Shown: positions 3,056 to 24,132, counted from the first letter of the stretch. The stretch is DNA of 24,202 bases from an uncultured Candidatus Saccharibacteria bacterium (GCA_964427645.1 CAYRVA010000001.1:1-24202); one strand, 5' to 3'. Translations and numbers: made by a program. The notes: generated by a model from the sequence alone, not told the origin.

Positions 3056-3772
3056 TTAGGGAAAATTCGTCATCACGTAGACCTTGTCCAAATTGCCCGG
3101 GTTCCACGGGAGGGTCAAGACCGCCTTGGCCCAAAGGCCGGAGGAGGTTTCGCTTAGGGAAGCGATCTGGCCGACGGGCAGGTCGACGGGCAATCCGGTC
3201 GCGACGCTCAAAACGTCATCCCCTTCCGCCGGTCCGGAATCCTTGGGTATAAGGTCCAGGCCCGGCACGGTCCCGCCGACGAGAAGGGCTTTGACCCGGC
3301 CGCTGCCAACGGCGACGGCGCTTCGCCAATTCGGATCGAAAATAGTTTTCACCTCGCTCTGGCTGCCGCTCACCGCCTTGATCTTGCCGATCAGAACTCC
3401 GCCGCTTCCCAGAACCGGCATGCCCGGCTTCAGGCCATCAGTGGCGCCGGCACCTATCGTGACCGCGGCGTAATCGTTCCAAGGATAATCGGATTGGACC
3501 TCGGCTGCGAGGAAATCGTATCGGCCGCCGCCGAACACGGGTGTGCTCGTGGCGCTTTTGAGGCGCAGGAGGTTTGCGATCTGTGATTTCAACCCGGCGT
3601 TTTCCGTTTCAAGGGCGGCGAAATTTTCGTAATTGAAACTACGGTCGGCGCTCCCGATCACGATGAGTCTCAAATTGCCGAAAAATCCTATCAGGGCGGT
3701 TCTCCCGAAAAAGGCCGCTCCGATGACTAAAATCACGGCCAGGCCCAAAACCAAGACCCGGAACGATCTCAT
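3056..3772 (-). CDS. mreC: Rod shape-determining protein MreC
   Basis: N-terminal TM, short coiled coil (LETENAGLK), 'GATDGLKPGMPV..G.LIGKI', 'GD.VLS..G.P..LPVG'; follows mreB. Confidence 0.9.
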   Translation of the reverse strand: MRSFRVLVLGLAVILVIGAAFFGRTALIGFFGNLRLIVIGSADRSFNYENFAALETENAGLKSQIANLLRLKSATSTPVFGGGRYDFLAAEVQSDYPWNDYAAVTIGAGATDGLKPGMPVLGSGGVLIGKIKAVSGSQSEVKTIFDPNWRSAVAVGSGRVKALLVGGTVPGLDLIPKDSGPAEGDDVLSVATGLPVDLPVGQIASLSETSSGLWAKAVLTLPWNPGNLDKVYVMTNFP

Positions 3773-4797
3773 AAGTTGATGATCTTGGTGCTGGCAAAAT
3801 TGTCGAGAAGATTACCGTAGGTTCGCAGGTCTTCAGCGATCAGGCCGGTCCCCCGGGCGACGCAAAGTAGCGGTTCGTCCACGATCCGCACCTCGACGCC
3901 GATCTCTTTTTCGAGAAGCTGGTCGATGCCTCGGAGCAAGCTGCCGCCGCCGCAAAGATAAACGCCGTTCTTGTAGATGTCGCCCACGAGCTCGGGCGGC
4001 GTTTCGTCGATCAGGTCTTTGAGCGCTTCCACCATTGCCTTGAGCGTCCGCGAGATCCACGGCCGCACCTGGGTATCCTTGATTATCATTTCGCGCGGGA
4101 GGCCAGTCGAAGCGTCGCGACCGCGCACGACGATCTCGAGGTGTTCCGATTGGGGCACGGTGGCGCCTACCGCGATCTTGATGTCCTCGGCCGTCGGTTC
4201 GCCGATGAAGAGACGGAATTCGTCCCGGACGCTCTTCATTATTTCTTGGTTCAAAAAGTCGCCGGCGACCTTGAGACGCCGCGAACGGACGATACCGTCC
4301 ATGGAAATGATGGCCATGTCGGTCGTCCCGGCGCCGATGTCGACGACGAGATAGGCCGTTGGTTCGTTTATGGTGAGCCGGCTACCCAAAGCCGCGGCGA
4401 TGGGCTGCTCAACGAGGTGCACCTCGGAAACCCCGGTCTCCCGCAGGAGATCCTCGACCGATTTTCTCTCAACCTCGGTCAAATTGGTCGGCACGGAAAC
4501 GATGGTCGCCGTAAGCCAGGACCACGGAATGCGCTTGTCTTTGAGGAAGCGTTCGATCATTTCTTTCGCCATGTCGAAATCACCGATCACGCCTCCCACC
4601 ATGGGCCGAAGGGCCGTGACATGGGCTGGCGTGCGCGAAAGCATCTTCTTGGCCTCATTGCCGACGGCGACGACGCGGTTCGTCCGGTTGTTAAAGGCGA
4701 CAATCGACGGCTCGCTCAAGATTATCCCCGTCCCTTTCAAATAAACTTGGGTCGTGTCCGTTCCGAGATCTATGCCTAAAGTTTTCTTGAAGATCAT
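3769..4797 (-). CDS. mreB: Rod shape-determining actin homologue MreB (copy 1, divergent)
   Basis: GIDLGT, EPSIVA, DIGAGTTD and LCGGGSLL motifs; first gene of mreBCD-mrdA. Confidence 0.93.
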   Translation of the reverse strand: MIFKKTLGIDLGTDTTQVYLKGTGIILSEPSIVAFNNRTNRVVAVGNEAKKMLSRTPAHVTALRPMVGGVIGDFDMAKEMIERFLKDKRIPWSWLTATIVSVPTNLTEVERKSVEDLLRETGVSEVHLVEQPIAAALGSRLTINEPTAYLVVDIGAGTTDMAIISMDGIVRSRRLKVAGDFLNQEIMKSVRDEFRLFIGEPTAEDIKIAVGATVPQSEHLEIVVRGRDASTGLPREMIIKDTQVRPWISRTLKAMVEALKDLIDETPPELVGDIYKNGVYLCGGGSLLRGIDQLLEKEIGVEVRIVDEPLLCVARGTGLIAEDLRTYGNLLDNFASTKIINL

Positions 4798-8821: not shown

Positions 8822-9580
8822 TTAATTATTGAGCATTTCCTGTATCGCCTTTTTCTGCAGGTTCATATTCAGATTATACCGCGAAATGGACAATTCGCGC
8901 TCGAGAAGCCAGCGGAGCTTCCTTGCGTTCCCCATAACGTCCGTCCGGCGAAGGCGCATTATTTCCTCCCGCAAATTGCCCAAAACGCCGTCGGCCGCCG
9001 GCTTTTCTCCGGAGAGCACGCTGAGCGCCCGGCCGATCGAACCGAACGACTGTCCGGCGATCCGCTTGGCCGTCTCTTTGGCCGTTCCCCGCTCTTCGGC
9101 CAGGAATCTTTCCACTTCCCCGACCGGCAGCCGCGGGAAATATATCTTTTCCAAACGCGAAAGGAGCGGCGGCAGGAAAAGTTCGCGGTTCTTGGCGACG
9201 AAGATGATGAGCGCGTGCTCCGGCGGTTCTTCGACCACCTTGAGGAGCGCCCCTTCGGCCTCCGTCGTGAGCCTTTCCGCTTCACCGATGACGAGCGTCC
9301 TTCGGGGCGAGGCGATCGGTTTTTGCCAGAGGAAATTCTTGGCCTCTCCGACTGCTTCGATGCCCAAACTCCCGTTTTCGCCGGGCGCAAGAAAAAGGGC
9401 GTCGATCGGGGGCCTTTGCGGTTTCTCCCATTCCCCCGTCTCGATCGCCGCGGCCAAAGAGCCGGCGAAGGTTTTTTTGCCGATACCCTCGTCGCCGTAA
9501 AAAAGATAGGCGTGGGAAAGCTTGCCTTCCTTGATCAGTTTTTTGAAAACGGCCGTTTTTGATTCGTAGCCGAAAAGCAT
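8822..9580 (-). CDS. holB: DNA polymerase III subunit delta-prime (short form, no Zn module)
   Basis: SHAYLFYG.EGIGK, degenerate Walker B with EAERLT.EA..ALLK..EEPP, and LSR. Start ATG 9580 overlaps the upstream TGA. Confidence 0.8.
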   Translation of the reverse strand: MLFGYESKTAVFKKLIKEGKLSHAYLFYGDEGIGKKTFAGSLAAAIETGEWEKPQRPPIDALFLAPGENGSLGIEAVGEAKNFLWQKPIASPRRTLVIGEAERLTTEAEGALLKVVEEPPEHALIIFVAKNRELFLPPLLSRLEKIYFPRLPVGEVERFLAEERGTAKETAKRIAGQSFGSIGRALSVLSGEKPAADGVLGNLREEIMRLRRTDVMGNARKLRWLLERELSISRYNLNMNLQKKAIQEMLNN

Positions 9581-10587
9581 CACCGCTTGTTCAAAAGCGT
9601 CCGTTTGTAGACATCCAAATGGTTCAAAATGGTCGCCGTGCCCTTTGAAACACACAATATCGGCTCTTCGGCGACGTAGGCCGAGACTCCCAAGGAGCGC
9701 TTGAAGAATTCCTCGAGATCGCGGAGTTGGGAGCTGCCACCCGAAAGAATGATCCCTTTTCCCATGATGTCGGCGGCGAGTTCCGGCGGGGTCACATTGA
9801 AAACGGACTGGACCGCGCCCATTATTTCGACGAGGTAGGGGTTCACCGCTTCGGCGATCTCGTTCGAGTTGATGACGAGGTCCTTGGGCAGTCCCGAGGA
9901 AAGGTCGCGGCCCCGGACCTTCATCTCCATTTTATTGCGGTTTTGGAGCGCCGTGCCGATGCCGATCTTGATGTTTTCAGCCGTCGTCTCGCCGATCGCG
10001 AGACCGTACTTTTTCTTGATGTACTCGGCGATCGAGTGGTCGAAACGATTCCCGGCGACCCGCAAAGAGGCCCAGGTAACGATGCCGCCGAGGGAGATCA
10101 CGGCCACCTCGGTCGTGCCGCCGCCGATGTTCACGATCATGTTTCCTTCGGCCGAATGGATCGGGATCCCGGCGCCGAGAGCGGCGAGGATCGGTTCCTT
10201 GACGAGATAGGCTTCCTTGGCGCTCGCCTCCTTCGCGGCGTTCATCACGGCGCGGTATTCGGTCGAGGTGATGCCGGCGGGAACGGATATCACGACATCC
10301 GGCCGGAAAACGTTCCACGATCCGACGCTCTTCGTGATGAAATATTTGAGCATCGCCTGGGTCACGTAGTATTCGGCGATGACGCCGTCCTTGAGAGGCT
10401 TGTAGGTCACGATGTCGTCCGGCGTGCGGCCGACCATCTCCTTAGCTTCAGCGCCGACGGCGAGGACCGCGTTGTCCGGTTTGCGCAAAGCGACCACGGT
10501 CGGCTCGTTGATGACGATGCCGTGGTTCGGCAGAAAGACCAAAGTATTCGTTGTTCCGAGATCTATTCCTATTTTCCGTATGAACAT
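9580..10587 (-). CDS. mreB: MreB/Mbl paralogue (copy 2)
   Basis: IGIDLGTTNT, NEPTVVA, PLKDGVIA, KEPILAALG, NIGGGTTE, LSGGSSQL. Start moved to ATG 10587 (MFIRKIG), 335 aa. Confidence 0.93.
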   Translation of the reverse strand: MFIRKIGIDLGTTNTLVFLPNHGIVINEPTVVALRKPDNAVLAVGAEAKEMVGRTPDDIVTYKPLKDGVIAEYYVTQAMLKYFITKSVGSWNVFRPDVVISVPAGITSTEYRAVMNAAKEASAKEAYLVKEPILAALGAGIPIHSAEGNMIVNIGGGTTEVAVISLGGIVTWASLRVAGNRFDHSIAEYIKKKYGLAIGETTAENIKIGIGTALQNRNKMEMKVRGRDLSSGLPKDLVINSNEIAEAVNPYLVEIMGAVQSVFNVTPPELAADIMGKGIILSGGSSQLRDLEEFFKRSLGVSAYVAEEPILCVSKGTATILNHLDVYKRTLLNKR

Positions 10588-10659
10588 CGCTATTAAGTTA
10601 CCCTCTTTCGGCTCAAAGTTCAACTTCCTTATTTCCCGTTCTGATGTAATATGTCCTTG

Positions 10660-12006
10660 ATGCGAAGAAGGACGCGCCGTCTCTTTTTTTACGCCCTCGT
10701 GGCCGTTTTCATCCTGGTCGGGGGCTACCTCGCCTTGGCCGCGGGCGGCTGGGTTTTCAGTTTCAAAACCTGGCGCATCGAAAAGACCGGCGCGCTCTTT
10801 TTGAAATTCTCCCCTTCCGACGCCCGCATTTATTTGGACGGGGCGCTCCAGAACGCGAGCGCCGGATTCCTTTCGAGCGGCGTCTTCATTCCGAACCTCG
10901 CGCCCGACACTTACCATGTCCGCGTCGCGGAAACGGGCTACGCTTCTTGGAACAAGGACCTCACGGTGGAATCCGGTTTTGTCACTTCCGCCTCGCAGGT
11001 GGAACTTTGGCCGGAAGCTTGGGACATCCAGCCCGCCGCGACCGGCACCGTTCCCGACTTTTGGCTCACCGGTTCCGGCGCCGTCGTCAAAACCCAGACT
11101 GGAAGCCTCCGGCTGGACGGCGACACCATCGCCGGGGAAAGCCTGGTTTTAAGCGACCCTTCGAACGACGCCGCCATAACGACGAACGGCCGGGATTATT
11201 CTTGGGTCAACCTCAACGAACCGAAAAACGCGGTGGACGTCACCGCTCTTTTCGATTCCCTGCGCCGATCCCAGCTCGATCTCACGGGCAGCGTACCCAT
11301 CGAACGGATATTTTTCCACCCTTTCAGCGCCACGCGCCTTTTGATCGTTTCTCAAAAGGCCGTTTACCTCCTCGATCTGCGCCAGCCGAAACTTTCACTT
11401 TTGCTGCGCACGCCGGGCATCGTGGCCGCTGCGACGAGCGATAACGAGGTTTTTACCCTTGATTCCTCGAGCACGCTCGATATTTTCAACCTCCTTCTCC
11501 AAACGGAGAGCGCCATTCCGCTCGGCGTTTCCGGTGCGGCGAGGATCGTCGTGACGCCTGAAGGCGGCAACGTATTCATCCTCCAAAACAACGGTACACT
11601 AACCGGATATAAACGCGGTTCGCAAGCGACGACGACTCTCGCCTCCGGCGTCGCCGATTTCTGGATCTCACCGGGCGAGGAACGAATGGCGCTGAAGACG
11701 ACGAGCGGCCGGCTCCGGCTGCTCGCGCTCAAGAATTTTTGGAACGACGGCAATTTTACCGCCGGCGAGACTTGGGACGTCGCCGTGCCGGGCGGCCAAC
11801 CGGACGACTTCTCCTGGGTCCCCGATTTCCCGGGTTACGGCCTGACGCTTTCTGGCGGCGAGCTTGCCTTTGTCGAACTTGACCCGCGTTCACCGGGGAA
11901 CGCGAGCGTGATCGCAAATGGCGTATCCAAATTCTATTTGAACGGCTCCGATCTCTTCTTCCTCAAAAGCGGCGTGCTCGAGTCGGTCGATTTGAGCAAT
12001 CTTTGA
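10660..12006 (+). CDS. Membrane-anchored PEGA-domain / beta-propeller surface protein
   Basis: Basic N-terminus plus TM, 'KTGALFLK..P.DA.IYLDG ... L.P..Y.V.V...GY..W.K.L.V' PEGA pattern, and beta-rich repeats after it. ATG 10660 lies 7 nt after TAATAT (10647-10652); the ORF track uses 10651. Confidence 0.75.
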   Translation: MRRRTRRLFFYALVAVFILVGGYLALAAGGWVFSFKTWRIEKTGALFLKFSPSDARIYLDGALQNASAGFLSSGVFIPNLAPDTYHVRVAETGYASWNKDLTVESGFVTSASQVELWPEAWDIQPAATGTVPDFWLTGSGAVVKTQTGSLRLDGDTIAGESLVLSDPSNDAAITTNGRDYSWVNLNEPKNAVDVTALFDSLRRSQLDLTGSVPIERIFFHPFSATRLLIVSQKAVYLLDLRQPKLSLLLRTPGIVAAATSDNEVFTLDSSSTLDIFNLLLQTESAIPLGVSGAARIVVTPEGGNVFILQNNGTLTGYKRGSQATTTLASGVADFWISPGEERMALKTTSGRLRLLALKNFWNDGNFTAGETWDVAVPGGQPDDFSWVPDFPGYGLTLSGGELAFVELDPRSPGNASVIANGVSKFYLNGSDLFFLKSGVLESVDLSNL

Positions 12007-17590: not shown

Positions 17591-18265
17591 TCAGACGGGT
17601 ACTTCGCTTTCGCTCAATATCCCGATGAGTTCCTTCACTTCGCGGATTTTCGCGTCGATGTCCTCCTGGGAAAACATCTGCTTGGCCCACTCGGTGTGGA
17701 GCTTCAGCGTCTCGTGGAAAGGCACTTCCATTTTGAGCACCTCGATCGGCTTCTTGCCCCATTCGGCCGCCAGGCCGAAAACGACCTGCTGGATCCACGC
17801 CGAATCCAAAGCCTGGCTCACGTCCGCGTCCCGGAGGATCTGGCCGCTCAAGGGCAAGCTTTCCGACGGGACGGTGTAAGGAAACTCCGTCATCCGGATC
17901 AACGGCGAGATATCTTCCAGGCAATCCCGGTCTTCGGGGAGAATATATTTCTCGAGACCCCGAACGGACCTTTCGATGTTCAAATCGTCGTCGCCCATCA
18001 AACCGGAGTGATTGAAGTCATGGAAAATCGCGGCGATCAGGAGGTTGCGCATCTCCCGGCGGTTGAGCTTGTTTCCGTAGAAAAGGCAGGCTTGGTAGCA
18101 CAGCCACAGCACGTGGAACATGTGCCGGAAATTATGATAGGGATTGCTCAAATTCTGGGCGTGATCGAAGATCGCCCGGAAATAACCCTTGAGGTCGCCT
18201 TGGTAAACATCGGCGCTGTTGCTGATGATGGCCGGCAAACTGCCATCGACTCGTGAAGATTCCAT
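17591..18265 (-). CDS. HD-superfamily phosphohydrolase resembling class I cyclic-nucleotide phosphodiesterases
   Basis: NPYHNFRHMFHV, AAIFHDFNHSG, LIRMTE, ILRDADVS; AAGGAG SD. Confidence 0.8.
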   Translation of the reverse strand: MESSRVDGSLPAIISNSADVYQGDLKGYFRAIFDHAQNLSNPYHNFRHMFHVLWLCYQACLFYGNKLNRREMRNLLIAAIFHDFNHSGLMGDDDLNIERSVRGLEKYILPEDRDCLEDISPLIRMTEFPYTVPSESLPLSGQILRDADVSQALDSAWIQQVVFGLAAEWGKKPIEVLKMEVPFHETLKLHTEWAKQMFSQEDIDAKIREVKELIGILSESEVPV

Positions 18266-18343: not shown

Positions 18344-18383
18344 AAAATAAAAAGGGACTCGGTAAAAAGCTGCACCGAGCCCC
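18344..18383 (-). terminator. Intrinsic terminator downstream of the Ubl operon
   Basis: GGGGCTCGGT-(10 nt)-ACCGAGTCCC-TTTTTATTTT on the minus strand. Confidence 0.75.
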
Positions 18384-18565
18384 TAGGATGAATCTTGCGC
18401 TTTCGGCTCTTGCGATGAGCGGTTAAGGATCATTCGCCTTTTCGCTTCATGCCAAGCGCCCTACTCGCGGTGGGGTTCGCTAATCTGCCAGGAGGTCCTT
18501 TGTTTGATCGTCCCACTCCCCCTGTCCGGGTTTTTTGGATCTACCTGCGCGTCGACGCAATACCC
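18384..18565 (-). ncRNA. Candidate structured RNA between the Ubl stop and the terminator
   Basis: No convincing ORF; several short hairpins and GNRA-type sequences (GCGA, GCAA, GAAA) on the minus strand. Confidence 0.25.
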
Positions 18566-18590: not shown

Positions 18591-18914
18591 CTAGTTGCCC
18601 TGAATCTTCGGGACAACCAGAACTATGTCGCCTTCGGCCACTTTCGTGTCCCAGGCAACATTCTCCCAATGCTCACCGACTTTTTCGGCAAGCATTTCGC
18701 CGTTTAGCTGCGGAACGTCCACACCTTTGTGGTCGCCGCCCGCGTCGTATTCGTCGCGCTGGACCGGAAAGGCCGGACCATCCAGACCTTTCTTTTGGCC
18801 GATCTCGACGGCCGCGCGTGACATAACATCGAAGACGGAGAATGGACCGTTTCCTTCCATGTTCAATTCGACGATCGTGCCGGGAACTCTCCCAGCCTTC
18901 ACCAGGATACCCAT
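18591..18914 (-). CDS. Ubiquitin-like (ThiS/MoaD/beta-grasp) protein, 107 aa, ending ...VVPKIQGN
   Basis: AAAGGAG SD before ATG 18914; beta-beta-alpha start; 'QLNGE' and 'WDTKVAEGDIVLVVP' match the ThiS/MoaD C-terminal signature; co-operonic with E1, JAB and E2. Confidence 0.85.
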   Translation of the reverse strand: MGILVKAGRVPGTIVELNMEGNGPFSVFDVMSRAAVEIGQKKGLDGPAFPVQRDEYDAGGDHKGVDVPQLNGEMLAEKVGEHWENVAWDTKVAEGDIVLVVPKIQGN

Positions 18915-18927
18915 AACCACTCCTTTC

Positions 18928-19680
18928 TTAGTTTTTCTTATTTCCTCGTTTACCCCAATCGGTCGCCGTGACCAAAATGGGGCGAATGCACAACATTTCG
19001 TAATTACTGTGTTCATTGGCCGCGGGCGCGACCGTGACTACCGGAGACATTTCTTCGCCAGCCACGAATTTCACGAGCTTGTGCGCTGCGAGTCCGGCGA
19101 CGGCCGCGACGGTCGTCGCGATCGCCCGGTAGGTGCAAGCCGATTCTTCGCCTTCTCCGTCGGAGAAAAGCGACTCATCGAAGCCTTGCACGTCGCGGCG
19201 ATTGGTCGGCCGAACGGTGTGGATGATTCCGATCTCGGCCCCAAGACGGGTCTCGACCATCAACTTAACGTCCAAATGGAATTTGATGGCCTTTTCCCAG
19301 ATCTCCTTCCGGGAGCTCATTGTATCCGTACAGAGGAATACTATTCCCGAAAGCTTCTTGGTCCCGTCGACCTTTTCGCGGTGCGGTACTACTTCCGTGC
19401 CGCAATCCGCTAGCAACCGGCTCGCCAAGGCTTCCACTTTGGTCTTACCCACGTCCTGCCGGCCATAAACTTGGTTAGGCAGATTATGGGGCTCGATCGT
19501 GTCGAAATCCCAGGCGTGGATCTTCCTTATCCCCATTTTGGCGAGAAGGTACGCGATCCAACTACCCGTGGCTCCGACACCGATAACGTGGACCTCTTCG
19601 TTGAAAGCCTCGGGATTGAAGACGTCCAATTGACGCCAGTAGTCCGGCGATGCAACGGCCACCTCATCCCGGGATTCCAT
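18928..19680 (-). CDS. ThiF/E1-like Ubl-activating enzyme (250 aa)
   Basis: YWRQ arginine finger, GVGATGS nucleotide loop, DFDTIEPHNLPNQ, DVGKTKV, CTDTMSSR, crossover-loop Cys in EESACTY; no CxxC Zn pairs. Confidence 0.9.
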   Translation of the reverse strand: MESRDEVAVASPDYWRQLDVFNPEAFNEEVHVIGVGATGSWIAYLLAKMGIRKIHAWDFDTIEPHNLPNQVYGRQDVGKTKVEALASRLLADCGTEVVPHREKVDGTKKLSGIVFLCTDTMSSRKEIWEKAIKFHLDVKLMVETRLGAEIGIIHTVRPTNRRDVQGFDESLFSDGEGEESACTYRAIATTVAAVAGLAAHKLVKFVAGEEMSPVVTVAPAANEHSNYEMLCIRPILVTATDWGKRGNKKN

Positions 19681-20389
19681 CTTCCGACTCTCCTTTCTTG
19701 TCCAGAGATTCGATGACACCCGGTCGAACGAAACTGAACCGGGCGGTCGATACGAAACCTCGGCTCACCTTTTGTTTCAGTTCCTCCACGATGCGCCCAC
19801 GGAGATCTTCCCTTTCCGGTTCGTAAACCGACCAGGGAACATCGATGACCCGCATTTTGCGGTCGTAGAAGAACACTTCAAAACGGAGGTTGCCGCTTTT
19901 GTTGGCTATCCCCATGATGAAATAATCGGCGCCTTCCCCAAATCGGTACATCGAAGCGAGGTCGCCGTAATCATTCGGGCCGTATGAACCGGAGGGGGCG
20001 ACTCCCATGTTAACGTGAGAATGACCCCAGAATCGGACGGCGTTGGCCTTTTCCACCCCGTCAGGCTCAGTGAGCATTTTGGTGAAGAATTCACCCACGC
20101 TTTTCTGATCCAACTTGGTTTCCGAGAAGCCGACTTCCTGCTCGAAAAGGAAAACCTCTTCTATCATGAACGTCATGCCATCCCGGCGAACGGTGCCGAG
20201 CCAACTGACTTCTTCGGGAGATTCGGACACGATGTAATACATCGTGTCGTAAGCTTCCCGGGAAATGAGGATGGTCGGCATCCCTCCGAGAACTTCCGTC
20301 TCGGTCTTGAACTGATGGGGCGTGAAACGGTTCGCCGCCCCGAAATACCGTGCCGTCACGCGGAACGGCGAAGGACGATCTTTCTTCAT
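19664..20389 (-). CDS. JAB/MPN+ (JAMM) metallo-isopeptidase-like protein
   Basis: N-terminal Glu strand (EEVSWLG) and WGHSHVNMGVAPSG...D; ATGA overlap with the E2 stop; AAAGGAGG SD. Confidence 0.85.
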   Translation of the reverse strand: MKKDRPSPFRVTARYFGAANRFTPHQFKTETEVLGGMPTILISREAYDTMYYIVSESPEEVSWLGTVRRDGMTFMIEEVFLFEQEVGFSETKLDQKSVGEFFTKMLTEPDGVEKANAVRFWGHSHVNMGVAPSGSYGPNDYGDLASMYRFGEGADYFIMGIANKSGNLRFEVFFYDRKMRVIDVPWSVYEPEREDLRGRIVEELKQKVSRGFVSTARFSFVRPGVIESLDKKGESEDGIPG

Positions 20390-21885
20390 CTGATTTCCTC
20401 CTTTGATTCTTTTTGGACCTTCGGCCAGCTATCTATGTACTTCCCGGCCATATCATCAACGTTCACGCTCTGCAGATACTGAATCGCCAGCATGGCGACG
20501 ACAGAGTATTCGTACGCCCCAATGTATTGAGGGATAGCTTCCTTCAAGTTCCCGAGGCAAGGCTCGCCATTGGGAAACACGTGCGGAGCGTGCATCTTTT
20601 CCTTGGAACCGTTGACCCGCCGGGTCAGGTTGAACATACGGACCCCACCATTGGACCCATCCGTATAGATGTCTATACGAAAATTGCCAATATCATACGT
20701 CGAACCTCCTTGCTCGACGTAGATCCGGTCGGTAAAAACGGAGATCACGTTATCTTCTACTTTCACGGCGGTAATGTGGGGCAGATCGAAGAGTTTGTCG
20801 AACTCGGCGGCGTAGCGTTCGATTATCTGCGGCCTTGTGGCCTCCAGTTGCTCGAGCTTACGCTCCTGACCGTCGCAAATACGGATTTGCTCGACCACCT
20901 CCCTTTGTGCTTCCTCATAGGCGGCTCGCGCCGCTTTGATCTTTCGGCGTGTATCTCCGACGGTCACTTCGAACCGCTTCGAACAGGCCCTGGCCCACTC
21001 TTCGCGTGATTTTTTCCGCTCGGCTTCGCGGATCTGGTCCAGGAGCGCGGCGACTTTCTTAGGGTCTCTTTCGATAACCAACGGCAAGAGTTCACAGATC
21101 AGCTCTTCCGCCAATTTGTAGACGCCCCTTTCCGGGCAGCCTCCCAAATTGGATATGCGGATGTAAAGCCCGCCGGTGACGTAGTGCGCCACTAGGTGCT
21201 CTCTTTCTTTCTGCCGTGCGCCAGACATATGCCAGCTATCCTGCTCGAAGATCAGGTAAAATTTGCCGTCCGTCGGTATTCCCTCTTCTTTCGGAGGAGA
21301 GAAGGATAGAACGGTCGGCAGATCGATCTCTTTTTGGTCGACCACCCAATCCCTTATGGCGCGAGCCAGATTCTTCCAATGATCACAGGGGTACTGGGAG
21401 TGAGCGTCGACCGTGAACAATTCCTTTCGCGCTTTCGCGGCGGCCGCACGTTTTTCCAGTTTCTCGCGGGTCGCCGGATCTTTCAACGCCGTGTAGCACT
21501 GCATTATCCCCGCCATGAGACTTATTCCCGTCCCGGCATGAGGAAGATCGAAGAGAACGTAAAGCGTGCCTTCATGCACCTCCCCCACCACCTGCTCGGT
21601 TATGGGGTCGATGAGCGGCAGCCCTTCTCCCGTCGGCTTTAAAGCATCGCATTGGCCTTCAGCCAATTGAACGCCGAAAGCCGACCCGATTTTAGCCTTG
21701 GATGTCCCTCTTGGCACCGACCAAAACTTGATGAACAGCTTACCTTCCGCTTTTTCCGGCGGAGATGGTACGCCATGTGGATTCGAAACGATCAAATCCA
21801 CGCCCAAAAGATCGGCATAATCCTGGAGTGTTGACTCGATCTCGTCCGCTAACTCGAGATCATCGCCTCTGAATTCAACCTTCAT
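20386..21885 (-). CDS. Multidomain protein: duplicated N-terminal domain, coiled coil and C-terminal prokaryotic E2/UBC-like domain
   Basis: HAPHVFPNGEPCLGN (Cys443) resembles the E2 HPN...G.ICL flap and active site, followed by QYLQSVNVDD...W; AAAGGAGG SD. Confidence 0.8.
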   Translation of the reverse strand: MKVEFRGDDLELADEIESTLQDYADLLGVDLIVSNPHGVPSPPEKAEGKLFIKFWSVPRGTSKAKIGSAFGVQLAEGQCDALKPTGEGLPLIDPITEQVVGEVHEGTLYVLFDLPHAGTGISLMAGIMQCYTALKDPATREKLEKRAAAAKARKELFTVDAHSQYPCDHWKNLARAIRDWVVDQKEIDLPTVLSFSPPKEEGIPTDGKFYLIFEQDSWHMSGARQKEREHLVAHYVTGGLYIRISNLGGCPERGVYKLAEELICELLPLVIERDPKKVAALLDQIREAERKKSREEWARACSKRFEVTVGDTRRKIKAARAAYEEAQREVVEQIRICDGQERKLEQLEATRPQIIERYAAEFDKLFDLPHITAVKVEDNVISVFTDRIYVEQGGSTYDIGNFRIDIYTDGSNGGVRMFNLTRRVNGSKEKMHAPHVFPNGEPCLGNLKEAIPQYIGAYEYSVVAMLAIQYLQSVNVDDMAGKYIDSWPKVQKESKEEIR

Positions 21886-21975
21886 TGTTTCCTCCTTTCG
21901 CCTTTGAGCATCATTCGGCTCGCCGGCATTTTTATTTGTCTGTCATTCCTAAGGTTGTCAATTCGTCTGGCCAAG

Positions 21976-22035
21976 ATAATATATCATTTACGTTTACTTG
22001 TCAATTTGACGGGCCAAGTTATTTATTGTTAAATT
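21976..22035. promoter_or_regulatory. Back-to-back divergent sigma70-type promoters
   Basis: Minus: TTGACA (22004-21999)-N17-TATTAT (21981-21976). Plus: TTGACG (22006-22011)-N18-TAAATT (22030-22035) with an extended TG. The two -35 boxes form the palindrome GTCAA-T-TTGAC. Confidence 0.6.
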
Positions 22036-22161
22036 ATCAGTGCTCAAGAGGTATTTTGAGCCGGAAATAAAGACCAACGATCTTTGAAAATTTTAAAGAG
22101 GTCAAACGGTCACATCTCGTCACCAACCGATCAAACAGGTCAGAAAGGAGCAATCGTGATC

Positions 22162-22455
22162 ATGGACCAAAAACGGACGAAAGGGTTCGTTATTGGCTCC
22201 TCCACCGCATCGAAAGGACGCATTGTCTGGAAGGTGCGCGTGGAAGATCCAGCTAGTCCGCATAACGGGCAGAAGCTTGTCGTCGCTTCGATCCAAGGAG
22301 GATTGGAGTTGGCTCAAGGGTTGAACGTCGACTTCGCTGTCGGGACGGTCGACGGCCCACTCGGAACGAAGATTCTCCGGGCGGTCGACGTACGCCTCGA
22401 AGACCCCGACGATGTCCCGAACATCAATCAGGTCAAAAGAACAGGAGGTCAGTAA
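22162..22455 (+). CDS. Small OB-fold/cold-shock-like beta-barrel protein ending ...KRTGGQ (alternative start GTG 22156)
   Basis: AAAGGAG SD at 22144-22150; five predicted beta strands; 'GLNVDFAVGT..GP.G....RAVDVR' recalls the CSD 'G..V.F....G.KG..A.NV' pattern; TAATG coupling to arc. Confidence 0.6.
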   Translation: MDQKRTKGFVIGSSTASKGRIVWKVRVEDPASPHNGQKLVVASIQGGLELAQGLNVDFAVGTVDGPLGTKILRAVDVRLEDPDDVPNINQVKRTGGQ

Positions 22456-23927
22456 TGGATCCAGACACAGAACGCCAGTTAAATTCTTTGCGCCAAGAAC
22501 TGGGAAGAGCAAAAACCAAGCTCAACGAAAAAGAAAGCATCATTCAACAACTCATGAGCCCGCCGCTCGCTTACGCTACCGTCGTGGCCATTAACGAAGC
22601 GACCGGTAGGAATACTGCCGTCATTATCGCGAACGGCCACGTTTTCGAAGTGTTCCTCCCCCAAAACGTCGCGATAGGCCCAGGCGACACCGTGGCGATC
22701 ACGCCGTCGACGATGCAGATCGTCGATACCGCCGTGATCCAAGGCAGCGGCACCATTGGTTACGTGCACCGCCCGATCGATGCTACGTTTTCGGAAGTGG
22801 AATACGAGTCATCGGTGCGGATGGTCTTCAACGGCAAACTAAGCGGCCAGCTCGAAAAGGGCGACCGCGTTGTCCTGGACGCTACAGGCACCGTCATTAC
22901 CCGCAACCTCGGAAAGGATAACGAACGTTTTCGATTCGATGAGGAAACGAACGTTACGTGGAACGATATCGGCGGTCTAGATGAAGCGAAACGGCAACTC
23001 ACTGAAGCCATCGAATTGCCTCATAGCAACCCGGATATATTCAAGTTCTACGACAAGAAACCGGTCAAGGGCATTTTGCTCTGGGGACCGCCCGGCTGCG
23101 GCAAAACCTTGCTCGGCAAGGCGTGTGCAACGGCGCTCTCTCGTATCCACAAGAACGGGTCAAGATCTACCGGCTTTATTTACATCAAGGGGCCGGAGAT
23201 ATTGGACAAATTCGTCGGTGTCGCCGAAGGGGCTATTCAGCAAATATTCCAAAGGGCCCGCAAGCACAAGAAGACGCACGGCTATCCGGCCGTTGTCTTC
23301 ATCGATGAAGCTGATGCTATACTGGCGAAGCGCGGCAGCGGTATCAGCTCGGACGTGGAACGAACCATCGTTCCCATGTTCCTGACGGAAATGAGCGGCC
23401 TAGAAGATTCCGGTGCCTTGGTGATCCTTTCCACGAATCGCCCCGATATTCTCGACCCGGCGGTCATCCGCGATGATCGCATTGATCGAAAGATCAAAGT
23501 AAGCCGACCGACGCCGGAAAATGCAGCCGATATTTTCATGCTCAACCTCAAACGGGTACCGCTCAACAACGGTTACACCCGGGAAGAGCTGGCAGAGCTC
23601 GGCAGTAGAGAGCTTTTCTCGTCTCGACGAGTGCTCTATAAGATCGACACCCGGAACAACGGCACCATCGACTTCACTCTCGGCAACATCGTGAACGGCG
23701 GTATGATCGTCAGCACCGTCGATCAAGCCACGTCCATCGCCATTCGGCGGGATCTCTCGGGGAAAGAAGGGTCAAAAGGTCTCCGCAAGGAAGACCTCAT
23801 AGCTGCCATCGACTCGGTCGAAGGCCAAAATCGCAACCTTAATCATGAAGATGATCTAGCGGATTTCATATACGAGTTCCGCAATGACGTCAGAGACATC
23901 CAGAGACTCCGTCAGGCAAGGACATAA
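22455..23927 (+). CDS. arc: ARC/Mpa-type proteasome-associated AAA+ ATPase lacking the C-terminal HbYX/GQYL tail
   Basis: N-terminal coiled coil ending in SPP, two OB-like segments, DIGGL, GPPGCGKT, IKGPEILDKFVG, FIDEAD, RGSGISSDVERTIVP, NRPDILDPAVIR..RIDRKIKV.RP, and the Mpa-type post-AAA insert (..NGGMI). Confidence 0.9.
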   Translation: MDPDTERQLNSLRQELGRAKTKLNEKESIIQQLMSPPLAYATVVAINEATGRNTAVIIANGHVFEVFLPQNVAIGPGDTVAITPSTMQIVDTAVIQGSGTIGYVHRPIDATFSEVEYESSVRMVFNGKLSGQLEKGDRVVLDATGTVITRNLGKDNERFRFDEETNVTWNDIGGLDEAKRQLTEAIELPHSNPDIFKFYDKKPVKGILLWGPPGCGKTLLGKACATALSRIHKNGSRSTGFIYIKGPEILDKFVGVAEGAIQQIFQRARKHKKTHGYPAVVFIDEADAILAKRGSGISSDVERTIVPMFLTEMSGLEDSGALVILSTNRPDILDPAVIRDDRIDRKIKVSRPTPENAADIFMLNLKRVPLNNGYTREELAELGSRELFSSRRVLYKIDTRNNGTIDFTLGNIVNGGMIVSTVDQATSIAIRRDLSGKEGSKGLRKEDLIAAIDSVEGQNRNLNHEDDLADFIYEFRNDVRDIQRLRQART

Positions 23928-23942
23928 TCAGAACAAAAACTT

Positions 23943-23980
23943 GGGGCAGTTCCATAGGCTCGGAACTGTCCCTTTTATTT
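23943..23980 (+). terminator. Intrinsic terminator of the arc operon
   Basis: GGGGCAGTTCC-(8 nt)-GGAACTGTCCC-TTTTATTT. Confidence 0.8.
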
Positions 23981-24046: not shown

Positions 24047-24118
24047 TCCGGTGTAGCTCAGCGGTAGAGCGGCTCCCTGTTAAGGAGATGGTCGTAGGTT
24101 CGAATCCTACCACCGGAG
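24047..24118 (+). tRNA. tRNA-Asn (GTT); CCA not encoded
   Basis: Acceptor TCCGGTG/CACCGGA, D arm GCTC/GAGC, anticodon loop CTGTTAA, T arm GTAGG-TTCGAAT-CCTAC, discriminator G. The top anticodon-stem pair is G-A and the 3' end reads CCG. Confidence 0.95.
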
Positions 24119-24132
24119 CCGAGAAATAAAAC

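What the first reader, a model, noticed from the sequence alone, without database searches (positions are those of the whole stretch)
18591..23927. Ubiquitin-like conjugation operon (E2-fusion, JAB, E1, Ubl) paired divergently with an ARC/Mpa unfoldase in a CPR-like genome
Seen in the sequence: four tightly coupled minus-strand genes (ATGA or short overlaps, each with an AAAGGAG SD) carrying E2-like HAPH..G.PCLG, JAMM HSH, ThiF/E1 and beta-grasp motifs. They share a 270-bp AT-rich divergent promoter region with a two-gene operon ending in an ARC/Mpa-type AAA+ ATPase. Established: Ubl+E1+E2+JAB sets perform protein conjugation in bacteria (Bil antiphage systems; Cap2/Cap3 in type II CBASS and Pycsar). 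Mpa/ARC normally serves the mechanistically unrelated Pup/PafA/Dop pathway, and none of those genes, nor 20S genes, is in this window. Inference: this may be a hybrid pathway in which targets are tagged with a beta-grasp Ubl and then unfolded or extracted by a repurposed ARC, similar to p97/Cdc48 segregase activity. Plausible roles are antiphage defence or host interaction. I do not recognise this gene combination from characterised systems, but cannot confirm novelty without a search.
Basis: partly seen in the sequence, partly recalled or inferred. Interest (0 to 1): 0.95.

Follow-up and report, generated by a model that had tools for sequence, protein, structure and literature searches.

The report
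Ubiquitin-like tagging cassette beside ARC-like unfoldase
A tiny-genome (CPR) bacterium carries a previously undescribed type of ubiquitin-like protein-tagging gene set, also found in giant phages, sitting back-to-back with a proteasome-less unfolding motor; the two are real but mostly separate modules that have come together only a few times.

Summary
Window 18591-21885 (-) is a tight four-gene operon. It encodes a beta-grasp Ubl ending ..KIQG|N, a minimal ThiF-type E1, a JAMM peptidase, and a 499-aa protein whose C-terminal domain models as a UBC/E2 fold with an invariant Cys in an HPH..G.C motif. It faces a two-gene operon across 276 bp with back-to-back promoter-like sites: a 97-aa OB-fold protein, then an ARC/Mpa-like AAA+ ATPase. 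The 90%-complete, 0.59-Mb genome gave no match to the PafA/Dop, Pup or 20S proteasome families.

The "hybrid tag-and-unfold pathway" is only partly supported. The cassette is rare (4 of 401 genomes sampled from the phylum) and self-sufficient: complete ~190-kb phages carry it without the ATPase. The ATPase's usual partners are the OB protein and a DUF1360 membrane protein in CPR, or TelA plus an ABC transporter in Bacteroidales. Cassette and ATPase are direct neighbours in 3 of about 16-18 distinct loci seen from either side. The three have different layouts and do not group together on a quick tree. That is more than chance, so I favour a facultative link. The -GGQ tail of the small protein is not Pup-like.

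The scan has noted the ARC-DUF1360 cassette, and other Ubl-plus-unfoldase pairings, on other DNA.

The parts
18353..18384 (-). Terminator-like hairpin downstream of the Ubl operon
   Evidence: 12-bp stem with 7 GC pairs plus a T-run.
18591..18914 (-). Beta-grasp ubiquitin-like protein, 107 aa, ending ..PKIQG-N. Gly106 is invariant in the family, and there is a ~25-residue insert relative to most homologues.
   Evidence: SD AAAGGAG plus ATG at 18914. Alignment A3: homologues end KI[KQR]G[GN] with 0-3 extra residues, and L003 has three tandem repeats. Homologues in L004 and L007 carry Pfam ThiS.
18928..19719 (-). Minimal E1: a single ThiF-type adenylation domain (~250 aa from the ATG at 19680), with no second (inactive) adenylation domain and no separate catalytic-Cys domain
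   Evidence: Pfam ThiF 1.8e-24. Invariant GxGxxGS, D58, HN..NQ, D119, R124, R145 and a single invariant Cys182 in 10 homologues. Only the ThiF core matches the Cap2 (E1-E2) and 6A-MBL models.
19664..20389 (-). JAMM/MPN+ metallopeptidase (241 aa); probable Ubl-processing and deconjugating enzyme
   Evidence: Invariant E60, H123-S-H125, S133 and D143. The profile of 6 homologues hits BRCC36, CSN5 and Rpn11 (E 0.003-0.6) with the HSH..S..D block aligned. No Pfam, NCBIfam or PADLOC hit.
20386..21885 (-). E2 fusion protein (499 aa): two alpha/beta N-terminal domains (1-135 and ~157-270), a ~90-residue helix (275-367), and a C-terminal UBC-fold domain (~351-491) with catalytic-type Cys443
   Evidence: AlphaFold model pLDDT 87.9. 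VIA Z 6.5-6.8 to human E2s over residues 351-491. The profile aligns aPHvesdGkaClGn to the UBE2L3 motif HPNIDEKGQVCL. One AFDB cluster relative is auto-named 'UBC core domain-containing protein'. Cys443 is invariant in 28 sequences.
21886..22161 (.). Divergent control region (276 bp) with back-to-back promoter-like sites
   Evidence: Minus strand TTGACA-17-TATTAT (11 of 12) at 22004-21976. Plus strand TTGACG-18-TAAATT with TG at 22006-22035. These are consensus matches only.
22162..22455 (+). Small OB-fold protein (97 aa) with a disordered tail ..KRTGGQ, translationally coupled to the ATPase
   Evidence: Model: five strands, pLDDT 80-90 for residues 5-79, and below 50 for 86-97. Foldseek gives SSB, PriB, S12 and cold-shock OB folds. 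58-68% identical orthologues lie directly upstream of the ATPase in at least 9 distinct other CPR loci.
22455..23927 (+). ARC/Mpa-like AAA+ ATPase (490 aa): short coiled coil, OB region, one AAA module, no GQYL-type tail
   Evidence: TIGR03689 310 bits over profile 18-489 of 512, below the cut-off. PDB Mpa 5kwa 194 bits over residues 131-462. Ends ..RLRQART. Orthologues are 52-72% identical in CPR and ~47% in Bacteroidales.
23943..23972 (+). Terminator-like hairpin after the ATPase gene
   Evidence: 11-bp stem with 7 GC pairs plus a T-run.
24047..24120 (+). tRNA-Asn(GTT) flanking the locus
   Evidence: ARAGORN on L025 at 2048-2121, which is window 24047-24120.

Best explanation
The locus holds two separable, horizontally mobile modules that are probably co-regulated here.

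Module 1 (18591-21885, minus strand) is a self-sufficient ubiquitin-like conjugation cassette of a family I could not find described. The following steps are inferred.
- The JAMM peptidase trims the Ubl after its invariant Gly106, removing Asn107.
- The minimal ThiF-type E1 adenylates that Gly.
- The Ubl passes to Cys443 of the UBC-fold domain of the 499-aa protein. It goes either through the E1's single invariant Cys182 or directly from the adenylate.
- The N-terminal domains and long helix of that protein choose the target, so it would act as an E2/E3 hybrid.
- The JAMM can also reverse the tag.

The cassette occurs sporadically in CPR bacteria, in island-like contexts, and in their phages, including complete ~190-kb phages. 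Its role is therefore most likely in phage-host or inter-element conflict. Which side it serves is unknown.

Module 2 (22162-23927, plus strand) is a proteasome-free ARC-like unfoldase with an OB-fold partner. That pair is normally found without any Ubl genes.

The two modules have been joined at least three times. I therefore read the unfoldase as an optional accessory that acts on Ubl-tagged proteins or on the conjugation machinery. I do not read it as an obligatory step.
For: Shown:
- Gene identities.
- The cassette order E2-fusion, JAB, ThiF, Ubl is conserved in all of about 16 loci.
- It is rare and patchy: 4 of 401 genomes sampled from the phylum.
- It is carried by phages: 5 IMG/VR contigs. 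L006 has a portal gene and SSB. G402 and G403 are rated 100% complete at 188-190 kb and have no ATPase. The nearest ESM Atlas cluster is 53% viral.
- Two cellular loci lie next to AbiEii, PIN, Fic and integrase genes.
- L004 and L103 have several E2-fusion paralogues but one JAB and one E1, which suggests that target choice lies in the fusion protein.
- The OB protein plus ATPase pair is conserved in at least 9 distinct other CPR loci without a cassette.

For a link:
- Direct juxtaposition in the window (divergent), in L004 (divergent, 163-bp gap) and in L077 (same strand, operon-like).
- The three linked ATPases do not form a clade. L077 sits inside a clade with 96% SH-aLRT support together with unlinked copies (quick tree).
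- The two promoter-like sites are back to back.
Against: - No experiment and no interaction evidence exists.
- Most cassettes (about 13 of 16) and most CPR-type ATPase loci (about 15 of 18) lack the other module. Several of those loci have short flanks.
- The three juxtapositions could reflect shared residence in hot spots of mobile elements. A tRNA gene flanks the window locus and the L101 cassette.
- In L004 and L077 the OB protein is replaced by unrelated small proteins. In the window the usual DUF1360 partner is missing. So there is no constant 'linked' form of module 2.
- E2, JAB and Ubl rest on motifs, weak profile hits and a predicted fold at Z below 8. None reaches a curated family threshold.
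Confidence: 0.5

Rival explanations
1. Obligate hybrid 'tag-and-unfold' pathway. The Ubl is a degradation or extraction tag read directly by the repurposed ARC, and the six genes form one system.
For: Direct adjacency with back-to-back promoter-like sites in the window. The adjacency recurs in L004 and L077, where E2-fusion identity is only 31-32%. The genome gave no match to the Pup-pathway families, so the ARC needs another way to recognise substrates.
Against: About 13 of 16 cassette loci lack the ATPase within the flanks seen. Complete jumbo phages have the cassette alone. At least 9 distinct ATPase loci carry the OB partner and no cassette. Across 401 genomes, only the window's own genome has both. 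The same ATPase clade sits in TelA/ABC-transporter operons in Bacteroidales.
Confidence: 0.12
2. Coincidental neighbours. These are two unrelated cargo modules of the same kind of mobile element or variable island, with no functional interaction.
For: Both are rare, patchy and linked to mobile elements. L023 has a serine recombinase and a CI-like repressor nearby. L004 looks phage-like. tRNA genes flank the window locus and the L101 cassette. Each module has its own constant partners. Each has its own terminator.
Against: Three independent juxtapositions, all direct, one of them a same-strand operon with short gaps. Given roughly 1% genome frequency for each module, random placement within 10 kb is very unlikely unless insertion hot spots are extremely narrow.
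Confidence: 0.3
3. The cassette is a sulfur-carrier or cofactor pathway of the ThiS/MoaD-ThiF type rather than a protein conjugation system.
For: The E1 is a minimal ThiF/MoeB-like domain. Its best NCBIfam matches are ThiF models, all far below their cut-offs. The Ubl is ThiS-like.
Against: It is always accompanied by a UBC-fold protein with an invariant Cys and by a JAMM peptidase. No sulfurtransferase or thiazole/molybdopterin synthase genes are adjacent in any locus. It is carried by phages. Some relatives have tandem poly-Ubl.
Confidence: 0.04

Closest known systems
BilABCD operons, Type I (6E) and Type II (CEHH/6C): Ubl BilA, E2 BilB, JAB deubiquitinase BilC, E1 BilD (PMC10557695)
   Same: The same four activities sit in one operon. 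The Ubl has a conserved Gly followed by a short removable tail. In Type II Bil the JAB cuts after that Gly (PMC10557695). Some relatives have tandem beta-grasp Ubls, as L003 does. The genes lie in conflict or island contexts.
   Different: The E1 here is a single ~250-aa ThiF domain. BilD has an N-terminal domain (Pfam14459), described in that paper as an inactive adenylation domain, plus a mobile Cys domain. The E2 here is the C-terminal domain of a 360-600-aa fusion protein and keeps a classical HP[HN]..G.C motif. No protein reaches any Pfam, NCBIfam or PADLOC family threshold apart from ThiF. Many copies are encoded by phages. Some loci add an ARC-like ATPase.
Mpa/ARC of the actinobacterial Pup-proteasome system (TIGR03689; PDB 5kwa, 7px9)
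   Same: It is the best full-length profile match (310 bits, profile 18-489 of 512). The architecture is coiled coil, OB region and a single AAA module.
   Different: The score is below the equivalog cut-off. There is no C-terminal GQYL-type docking tail, and the coiled coil is short. The genome gave no match to the Pup, PafA/Dop or 20S families. The partners are an OB-fold protein and usually DUF1360, or TelA plus an ABC transporter in Bacteroidales.
Archaeal SAMP/UbaA/JAMM1 system with Cdc48/PAN (Haloferax volcanii; PMC4895103, PMC10470531)
   Same: A ThiS/MoaD-like Ubl, a minimal MoeB/ThiF-type E1 and a JAMM peptidase are functionally tied to AAA+ unfoldases.
   Different: No E2 is known in SAMPylation, whereas a UBC-fold protein with an invariant Cys is always present here. 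Archaea have 20S proteasomes, but this genome gave no match to the proteasome family. The genes are not organised as one mobile cassette.
Eukaryotic E2/E3 hybrid enzymes (UBE2O, BIRC6) and ubiquitin-Cdc48/p97 segregase coupling (from my own knowledge, not tested here)
   Same: A UBC domain is embedded in a larger protein that could select substrates itself. The idea is that a tag hands substrates to a protease-independent unfoldase.
   Different: There is no sequence relationship beyond the UBC fold. No adaptor equivalent to Ufd1-Npl4 has been identified. The coupling here is optional and unproven.

Membership tests
BilABCD (Type I/II) ubiquitination-like operons | Operon encoding Ubl, E2, JAB peptidase and E1 | tested here: met
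   All four activities lie in one overlapping operon, and the order is conserved in about 16 loci.
BilABCD (Type I/II) ubiquitination-like operons | E1 (BilD) with an N-terminal Pfam14459 domain (an inactive adenylation domain in the structure), an active adenylation domain and a mobile catalytic-Cys domain | tested here: not met
   The E1 is ~250 aa with a single ThiF domain (residues 40-243). There is no PF14459 hit and only one invariant Cys. BilD architecture is taken from PMC10557695.
BilABCD (Type I/II) ubiquitination-like operons | Ubl with a conserved C-terminal Gly followed by a removable tail | tested here: met
   Gly106 is invariant. Tails after it are N, NQ, NVFF, G, GR or GA, and L003 has tandem repeats joined after KIKGN. 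Cleavage itself was not tested.
BilABCD (Type I/II) ubiquitination-like operons | Sequence membership in curated Bil, E2 or defence models | tested here: not met
   E2 fusion, JAB and Ubl have no hits in Pfam, NCBIfam 20.0, PADLOC 2.0 or PHROGs. The E1 matches only through its generic ThiF core.
UBC/E2 superfamily | UBC fold with the catalytic Cys downstream of an HPN-type motif | tested here: met
   Model residues 351-491 align to Ube2K, UBE2L3 and UBE2L6 at Z 6.5-6.8 over 115-121 residues. HAPHVFPNGEPC aligns to HPNIDEKGQVC. Cys443 is invariant. The Z is moderate and the Pfam UQ_con threshold is not reached.
JAMM/MPN+ metallopeptidases | E...HxHx7SxxD zinc-site motif | tested here: met
   E60, H123, H125, S133 and D143 are invariant. 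Profile hits to BRCC36, CSN5 and Rpn11 have the motif aligned, at E 0.003-0.6. No curated HMM hit.
Mpa/ARC proteasomal ATPase (TIGR03689) | Score above the equivalog cut-off | tested here: not met
   310.4 bits against a cut-off of 504.75, although it is the best family and covers the full length.
Mpa/ARC proteasomal ATPase (TIGR03689) | C-terminal proteasome-docking motif, and co-occurrence with Pup, PafA/Dop and 20S | tested here: not met
   The protein ends ..RLRQART. PF03136, PF05639 and PF00227 gave no match in the 90%-complete genome.
Pup / UBact-type tags (for the 97-aa protein) | Small disordered protein whose terminal Gln/Glu after Gly-Gly is the conjugation site | tested here: not met
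   It is a folded five-strand OB barrel. Orthologue tails are mostly ..SGGQS, with variants SRGQS and SGDQQ, and L033 has no tail. The GGA GGT codons form the AGGAGGT Shine-Dalgarno sequence of the overlapping ATPase start. No PF05639 match in the genome.

The most novel reading that the evidence does not exclude
In the linked loci (window, L004, L077), proteins tagged by the beta-grasp Ubl are direct substrates of the proteasome-free ARC-like unfoldase. This would be a bacterial or phage 'tag-and-extract' system analogous to ubiquitin-Cdc48/p97. It would have been assembled repeatedly from mobile parts and would be used in phage-host conflict in CPR bacteria.
Probability: 0.2. Interest if true: 0.85.

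Novelty: new variant of a known kind. Interest (0 to 1): 0.6.

Why it matters
Bacterial ubiquitin-like conjugation (Bil, Bub, CBASS Cap2) has only recently been shown to work. This adds a distinct family with three unusual traits:
- the smallest E1;
- an E2 that keeps the classical HPN-like active-site motif and is fused to likely target-selecting domains;
- frequent carriage by phages of ultra-small CPR bacteria, including complete ~190-kb phages. Phages themselves may therefore use ubiquitin-like tagging.

The repeated, optional joining to a proteasome-less ARC-type unfoldase offers a tractable test of a wider question. Did the coupling of a Ubl tag to an AAA+ unfoldase, a hallmark of eukaryotes and archaea, also arise in bacteria and their viruses?

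Separately, the ARC-like clade has conserved partners outside Actinobacteria: an OB-fold protein and DUF1360, or TelA plus an ABC transporter. That shows a Pup-independent life for this ATPase.

Tried and rejected
- Complex prediction with two copies of the ATPase N-terminal region (residues 1-165) plus the Ubl (1-106) gave 'no answer', score 0.00. This is not evidence either way.
- The search for related loci with alignments A1 and A4 on genome contigs failed because no stretch was conserved enough. I used the genome search on 401 genomes of the phylum instead.
- The scan of viral contigs for the ATPase found none.
- PADLOC and PHROGs gave nothing specific. The TRIP13 and IetA hits reflect generic AAA similarity.
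- The Pup-like reading of the 97-aa protein is rejected. It has an OB fold, the tail is not invariant, and the tail codons double as the downstream Shine-Dalgarno sequence.
- The HD/PDEase gene at 17591-18265 is not part of the system. It has no homologue in any related locus.
- I looked for att-type direct repeats matching the flanking tRNA-Asn and found none.
- Gene-less 1.2-1.9-kb stretches upstream of the cassette in L003, L005, L007 and L101 share no DNA similarity and give no Rfam family.
- Literature searches found no description of this cassette family or of an ARC-Ubl pairing. The library is incomplete, so this is not proof of novelty.
- The N-terminal domains of the E2 fusion give only weak matches to the class-I glutamine-amidotransferase-like fold (Z about 5-6). 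I assign them no function.

Full report
**What is there**

The window is contig C1 of a 594,704-base assembly in 113 contigs, 90.3% complete. Its left half encodes housekeeping genes: PBP2, MreB/C, an aminoacyl-tRNA synthetase, Ddl, an M50 protease, RRF and HolB. The right half is a variable region: DUF488, NUDIX, HTH_17, PAS, an HD protein, then the locus in question.

The minus-strand operon runs as follows.
- E2 fusion: 20386-21885.
- JAB: 19664-20389, joined to the E2 fusion by an ATGA overlap.
- E1: 18928-19680/19719.
- Ubl: 18591-18914, with AAAGGAG 7 nt before its ATG.

The 141-aa ORF in the finding over-extends the Ubl, whose real length is 107 aa. A terminator-like hairpin follows at 18384-18353.

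Across 276 bp lie two back-to-back promoter-like sites. Beyond them a 97-aa gene (22162-22455) overlaps the start of a 490-aa AAA+ ATPase gene (22455-23927) by TAATG. A hairpin (23943-23972) and tRNA-Asn (24047-24120) follow.

**Identity of the four cassette proteins**

- E1. Pfam ThiF at 1.8e-24. Ten homologues share GxGxxGS, D58, HN..NQ, D119, R124, R145 and one invariant Cys182. At about 250 aa it has neither a second adenylation domain nor a catalytic-Cys domain. Only the ThiF core matches the Cap2 and 6A-MBL models.
- JAB. No curated HMM hit. E60, H123-S-H125, S133 and D143 are invariant, and relatives show the exact HxHx7SxxD spacing. A profile of six homologues finds BRCC36, CSN5 and Rpn11 with the motif aligned, at E 0.003-0.6.
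- E2 fusion. A search of 5.8 billion clusters gave 44 relatives, all unnamed and without Pfam domains. Cys443 is invariant in 28 sequences, inside HP[H]V..dG..C-L-G-N.
  - The AlphaFold model (pLDDT 87.9) shows two alpha/beta domains, a helix of about 90 residues, and a C-terminal domain.
  - That C-terminal domain aligns to Ube2K, UBE2L3 and UBE2L6 at Z 6.5-6.8 over 115-121 residues.
  - A profile aligns the motif onto the UBE2L3 sequence HPNIDEKGQVCL.
  - An AFDB cluster relative is auto-annotated 'UBC core domain-containing protein'.
  - The Z values are moderate. The case rests on fold, motif register and the invariant Cys taken together.
- Ubl. Homologues end KI[KQR]G followed by G or N and 0-3 further residues. 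L003 has three tandem copies, and two homologues carry Pfam ThiS. Gly106 is invariant. Removal of Asn107 by the JAB is therefore the likely maturation step, as shown for Type II BilA (PMC10557695).

**Distribution of the cassette**

- The order E2 fusion, JAB, ThiF, Ubl is kept in about 16 distinct loci.
- It is rare: 4 of 401 genomes sampled from the phylum, including the window's own.
- Many copies are viral: five IMG/VR contigs of 25-193 kb. L006/L011 also carries a portal gene and SSB. L009 belongs to a phage record rated 100% complete, with terminal repeats. The nearest ESM Atlas cluster is 53% viral.
- Two cellular loci lie beside AbiEii, PIN, Fic, TrmB and integrase genes.
- L004 and L103 have several E2-fusion paralogues before a single JAB and a single E1. 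That points to target selection by the fusion protein.

**The ATPase module**

The ATPase's best family is TIGR03689 (pup_AAA), at 310 bits over profile positions 18-489 of 512. That is below the 504.75-bit cut-off. Mpa structures match residues 131-462. The protein ends ..RLRQART, without a docking motif. The genome gave no match to PafA/Dop, Pup or the proteasome family.

The 97-aa protein models as a five-strand OB barrel with a disordered tail. Orthologues at 58-68% identity sit directly upstream of the ATPase in at least 9 distinct other CPR loci. Their tails are mostly ..SGGQS, but also SRGQS and SGDQQ, and L033 has none. The codons GGA GGT spell the Shine-Dalgarno sequence of the overlapping ATPase start. 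The Pup-like look of -GGQ is therefore most simply a by-product of translational coupling.

In CPR loci the ATPase is almost always followed by a DUF1360 membrane protein. That protein is absent from the window and from the rest of this genome. In Bacteroidales and one Pacearchaeota MAG, a clade about 47% identical is the last gene of a TelA plus ABC-transporter operon. One CPR copy (L024) also follows an ABC ATPase gene.

**Is the pairing real?**

- Seen from the cassette side, the ATPase is adjacent in the window, L004 and L077 only, about 3 of 16 loci.
- Seen from the ATPase side, the count is 3 of about 18 distinct CPR-type loci. Several of these have short flanks.
- Among 401 genomes, 4 have the E2 domain and 3 have the ATPase. 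Only the window's own genome has both.
- Complete jumbo phages have the cassette and no ATPase.

The modules are therefore separable, and an obligate six-gene system is not supported.

Yet the three juxtapositions are all direct and are built differently. The window is divergent. L004 is divergent across 163 bp, with three E2 paralogues. L077 is one same-strand array: E2 fusion, JAB, E1, Ubl, two small genes, ATPase, DUF1360. The sequences are diverged: E2 fusion 31-32% and ATPase 52-65% identical to the window's. On a quick tree the three linked ATPases are not a clade.

With each module present in roughly 1% of genomes of about 0.6-1 Mb, random placement within 10 kb would be expected in well under 1 in 1,000 loci. 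This is my own rough estimate. It ignores insertion hot spots, which could inflate chance adjacency. I therefore favour an optional functional link at about 0.5 and coincidence at about 0.3.

**Mechanism: shown and inferred**

Shown by sequence or model: the catalytic-type residues and folds listed above, the operon couplings, and the distribution. Everything about activity is inferred.
- The JAB trims the Ubl at Gly106.
- The E1 adenylates it.
- The Ubl is transferred to Cys443.
- The N-terminal domains choose the target.
- The JAB can reverse the tag.
- The unfoldase, with its OB partner, optionally processes tagged proteins.

A predicted-complex test of the Ubl against the ATPase N-terminal region returned no verdict.

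**Novelty**

The closest described systems are the BilABCD operons. The membership tests fail on E1 architecture and on every curated model. I found no paper describing this cassette family or an ARC-Ubl pairing. The library is incomplete.

Earlier notes of this scan report the CPR cassette of ARC, DUF1360 and a Pup-like microprotein (e1-1077122, e1-833853). They also report other Ubl-kit-plus-unfoldase operons on other DNA (e1-3373720, e1-1255556, e1-2377308, e1-5261373). Those are unchecked leads, not independent support.

I class this as a new variant of a known kind, with interest 0.6.

Noticed in passing
window 24047-24120 (+); L101 1204-1276: A tRNA-Asn(GTT) gene lies just after the ATPase terminator. 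The closest full-length cassette relative (L101) also sits next to a tRNA. This suggests island insertion at tRNA genes, but I found no att-like repeat.
   Followed up: partly
L084 5046-11341 (also L041, L074, L083, L086, L088, L089 and others): In Bacteroidales and one Pacearchaeota MAG, a ~47%-identical clade of this ARC-like ATPase is the last gene of a conserved operon. The operon encodes TelA, an NMT1-like binding protein, an ABC permease, an ABC ATPase and then the AAA protein.
   Followed up: partly
L004 1013-1375; L023 8923-9360; L077 8266-8631; many of L026-L081: A DUF1360 membrane protein follows the ATPase in nearly all CPR loci, but is missing from the window and from the whole genome. 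In L004 a 60-aa protein ending ..ALGACDYC lies between the ATPase and DUF1360.
   Followed up: partly
L004 4455-8174; L103 5520-11315: Several tandem E2-fusion paralogues (three in L004; possibly four in L103, by size and position only) with differing N-terminal parts precede a single JAB and a single E1.
   Followed up: partly
L003 11149-11781: The Ubl gene encodes three tandem beta-grasp repeats, each ending KIKGN. This is a poly-Ubl precursor like eukaryotic polyubiquitin.
   Followed up: no
L003 6472-8001; L005 6576-7827; L007 6085-8001; L101 1277-2800: Gene-less stretches of 1.2-1.9 kb lie upstream of the E2-fusion gene in several loci. They share no DNA similarity and give no Rfam match. 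They remain unexplained.
   Followed up: partly
L009 12667-12852: The complete jumbo phage has a second small beta-grasp-like ORF without a terminal Gly-Gly, between the E1 and the Ubl (which ends ..QIKGGA).
   Followed up: no
window 9580-10917 and 3769-4797: There are two MreB genes in this tiny genome. One has an N-terminal extension of about 110 residues.
   Followed up: no
L025 4747-5496 (contig C1 about 26746-27495, beyond the window): An IS200/Y1-transposase-like gene and a second tRNA (Lys) lie a few kb beyond the ATPase. This is consistent with a variable region.
   Followed up: no
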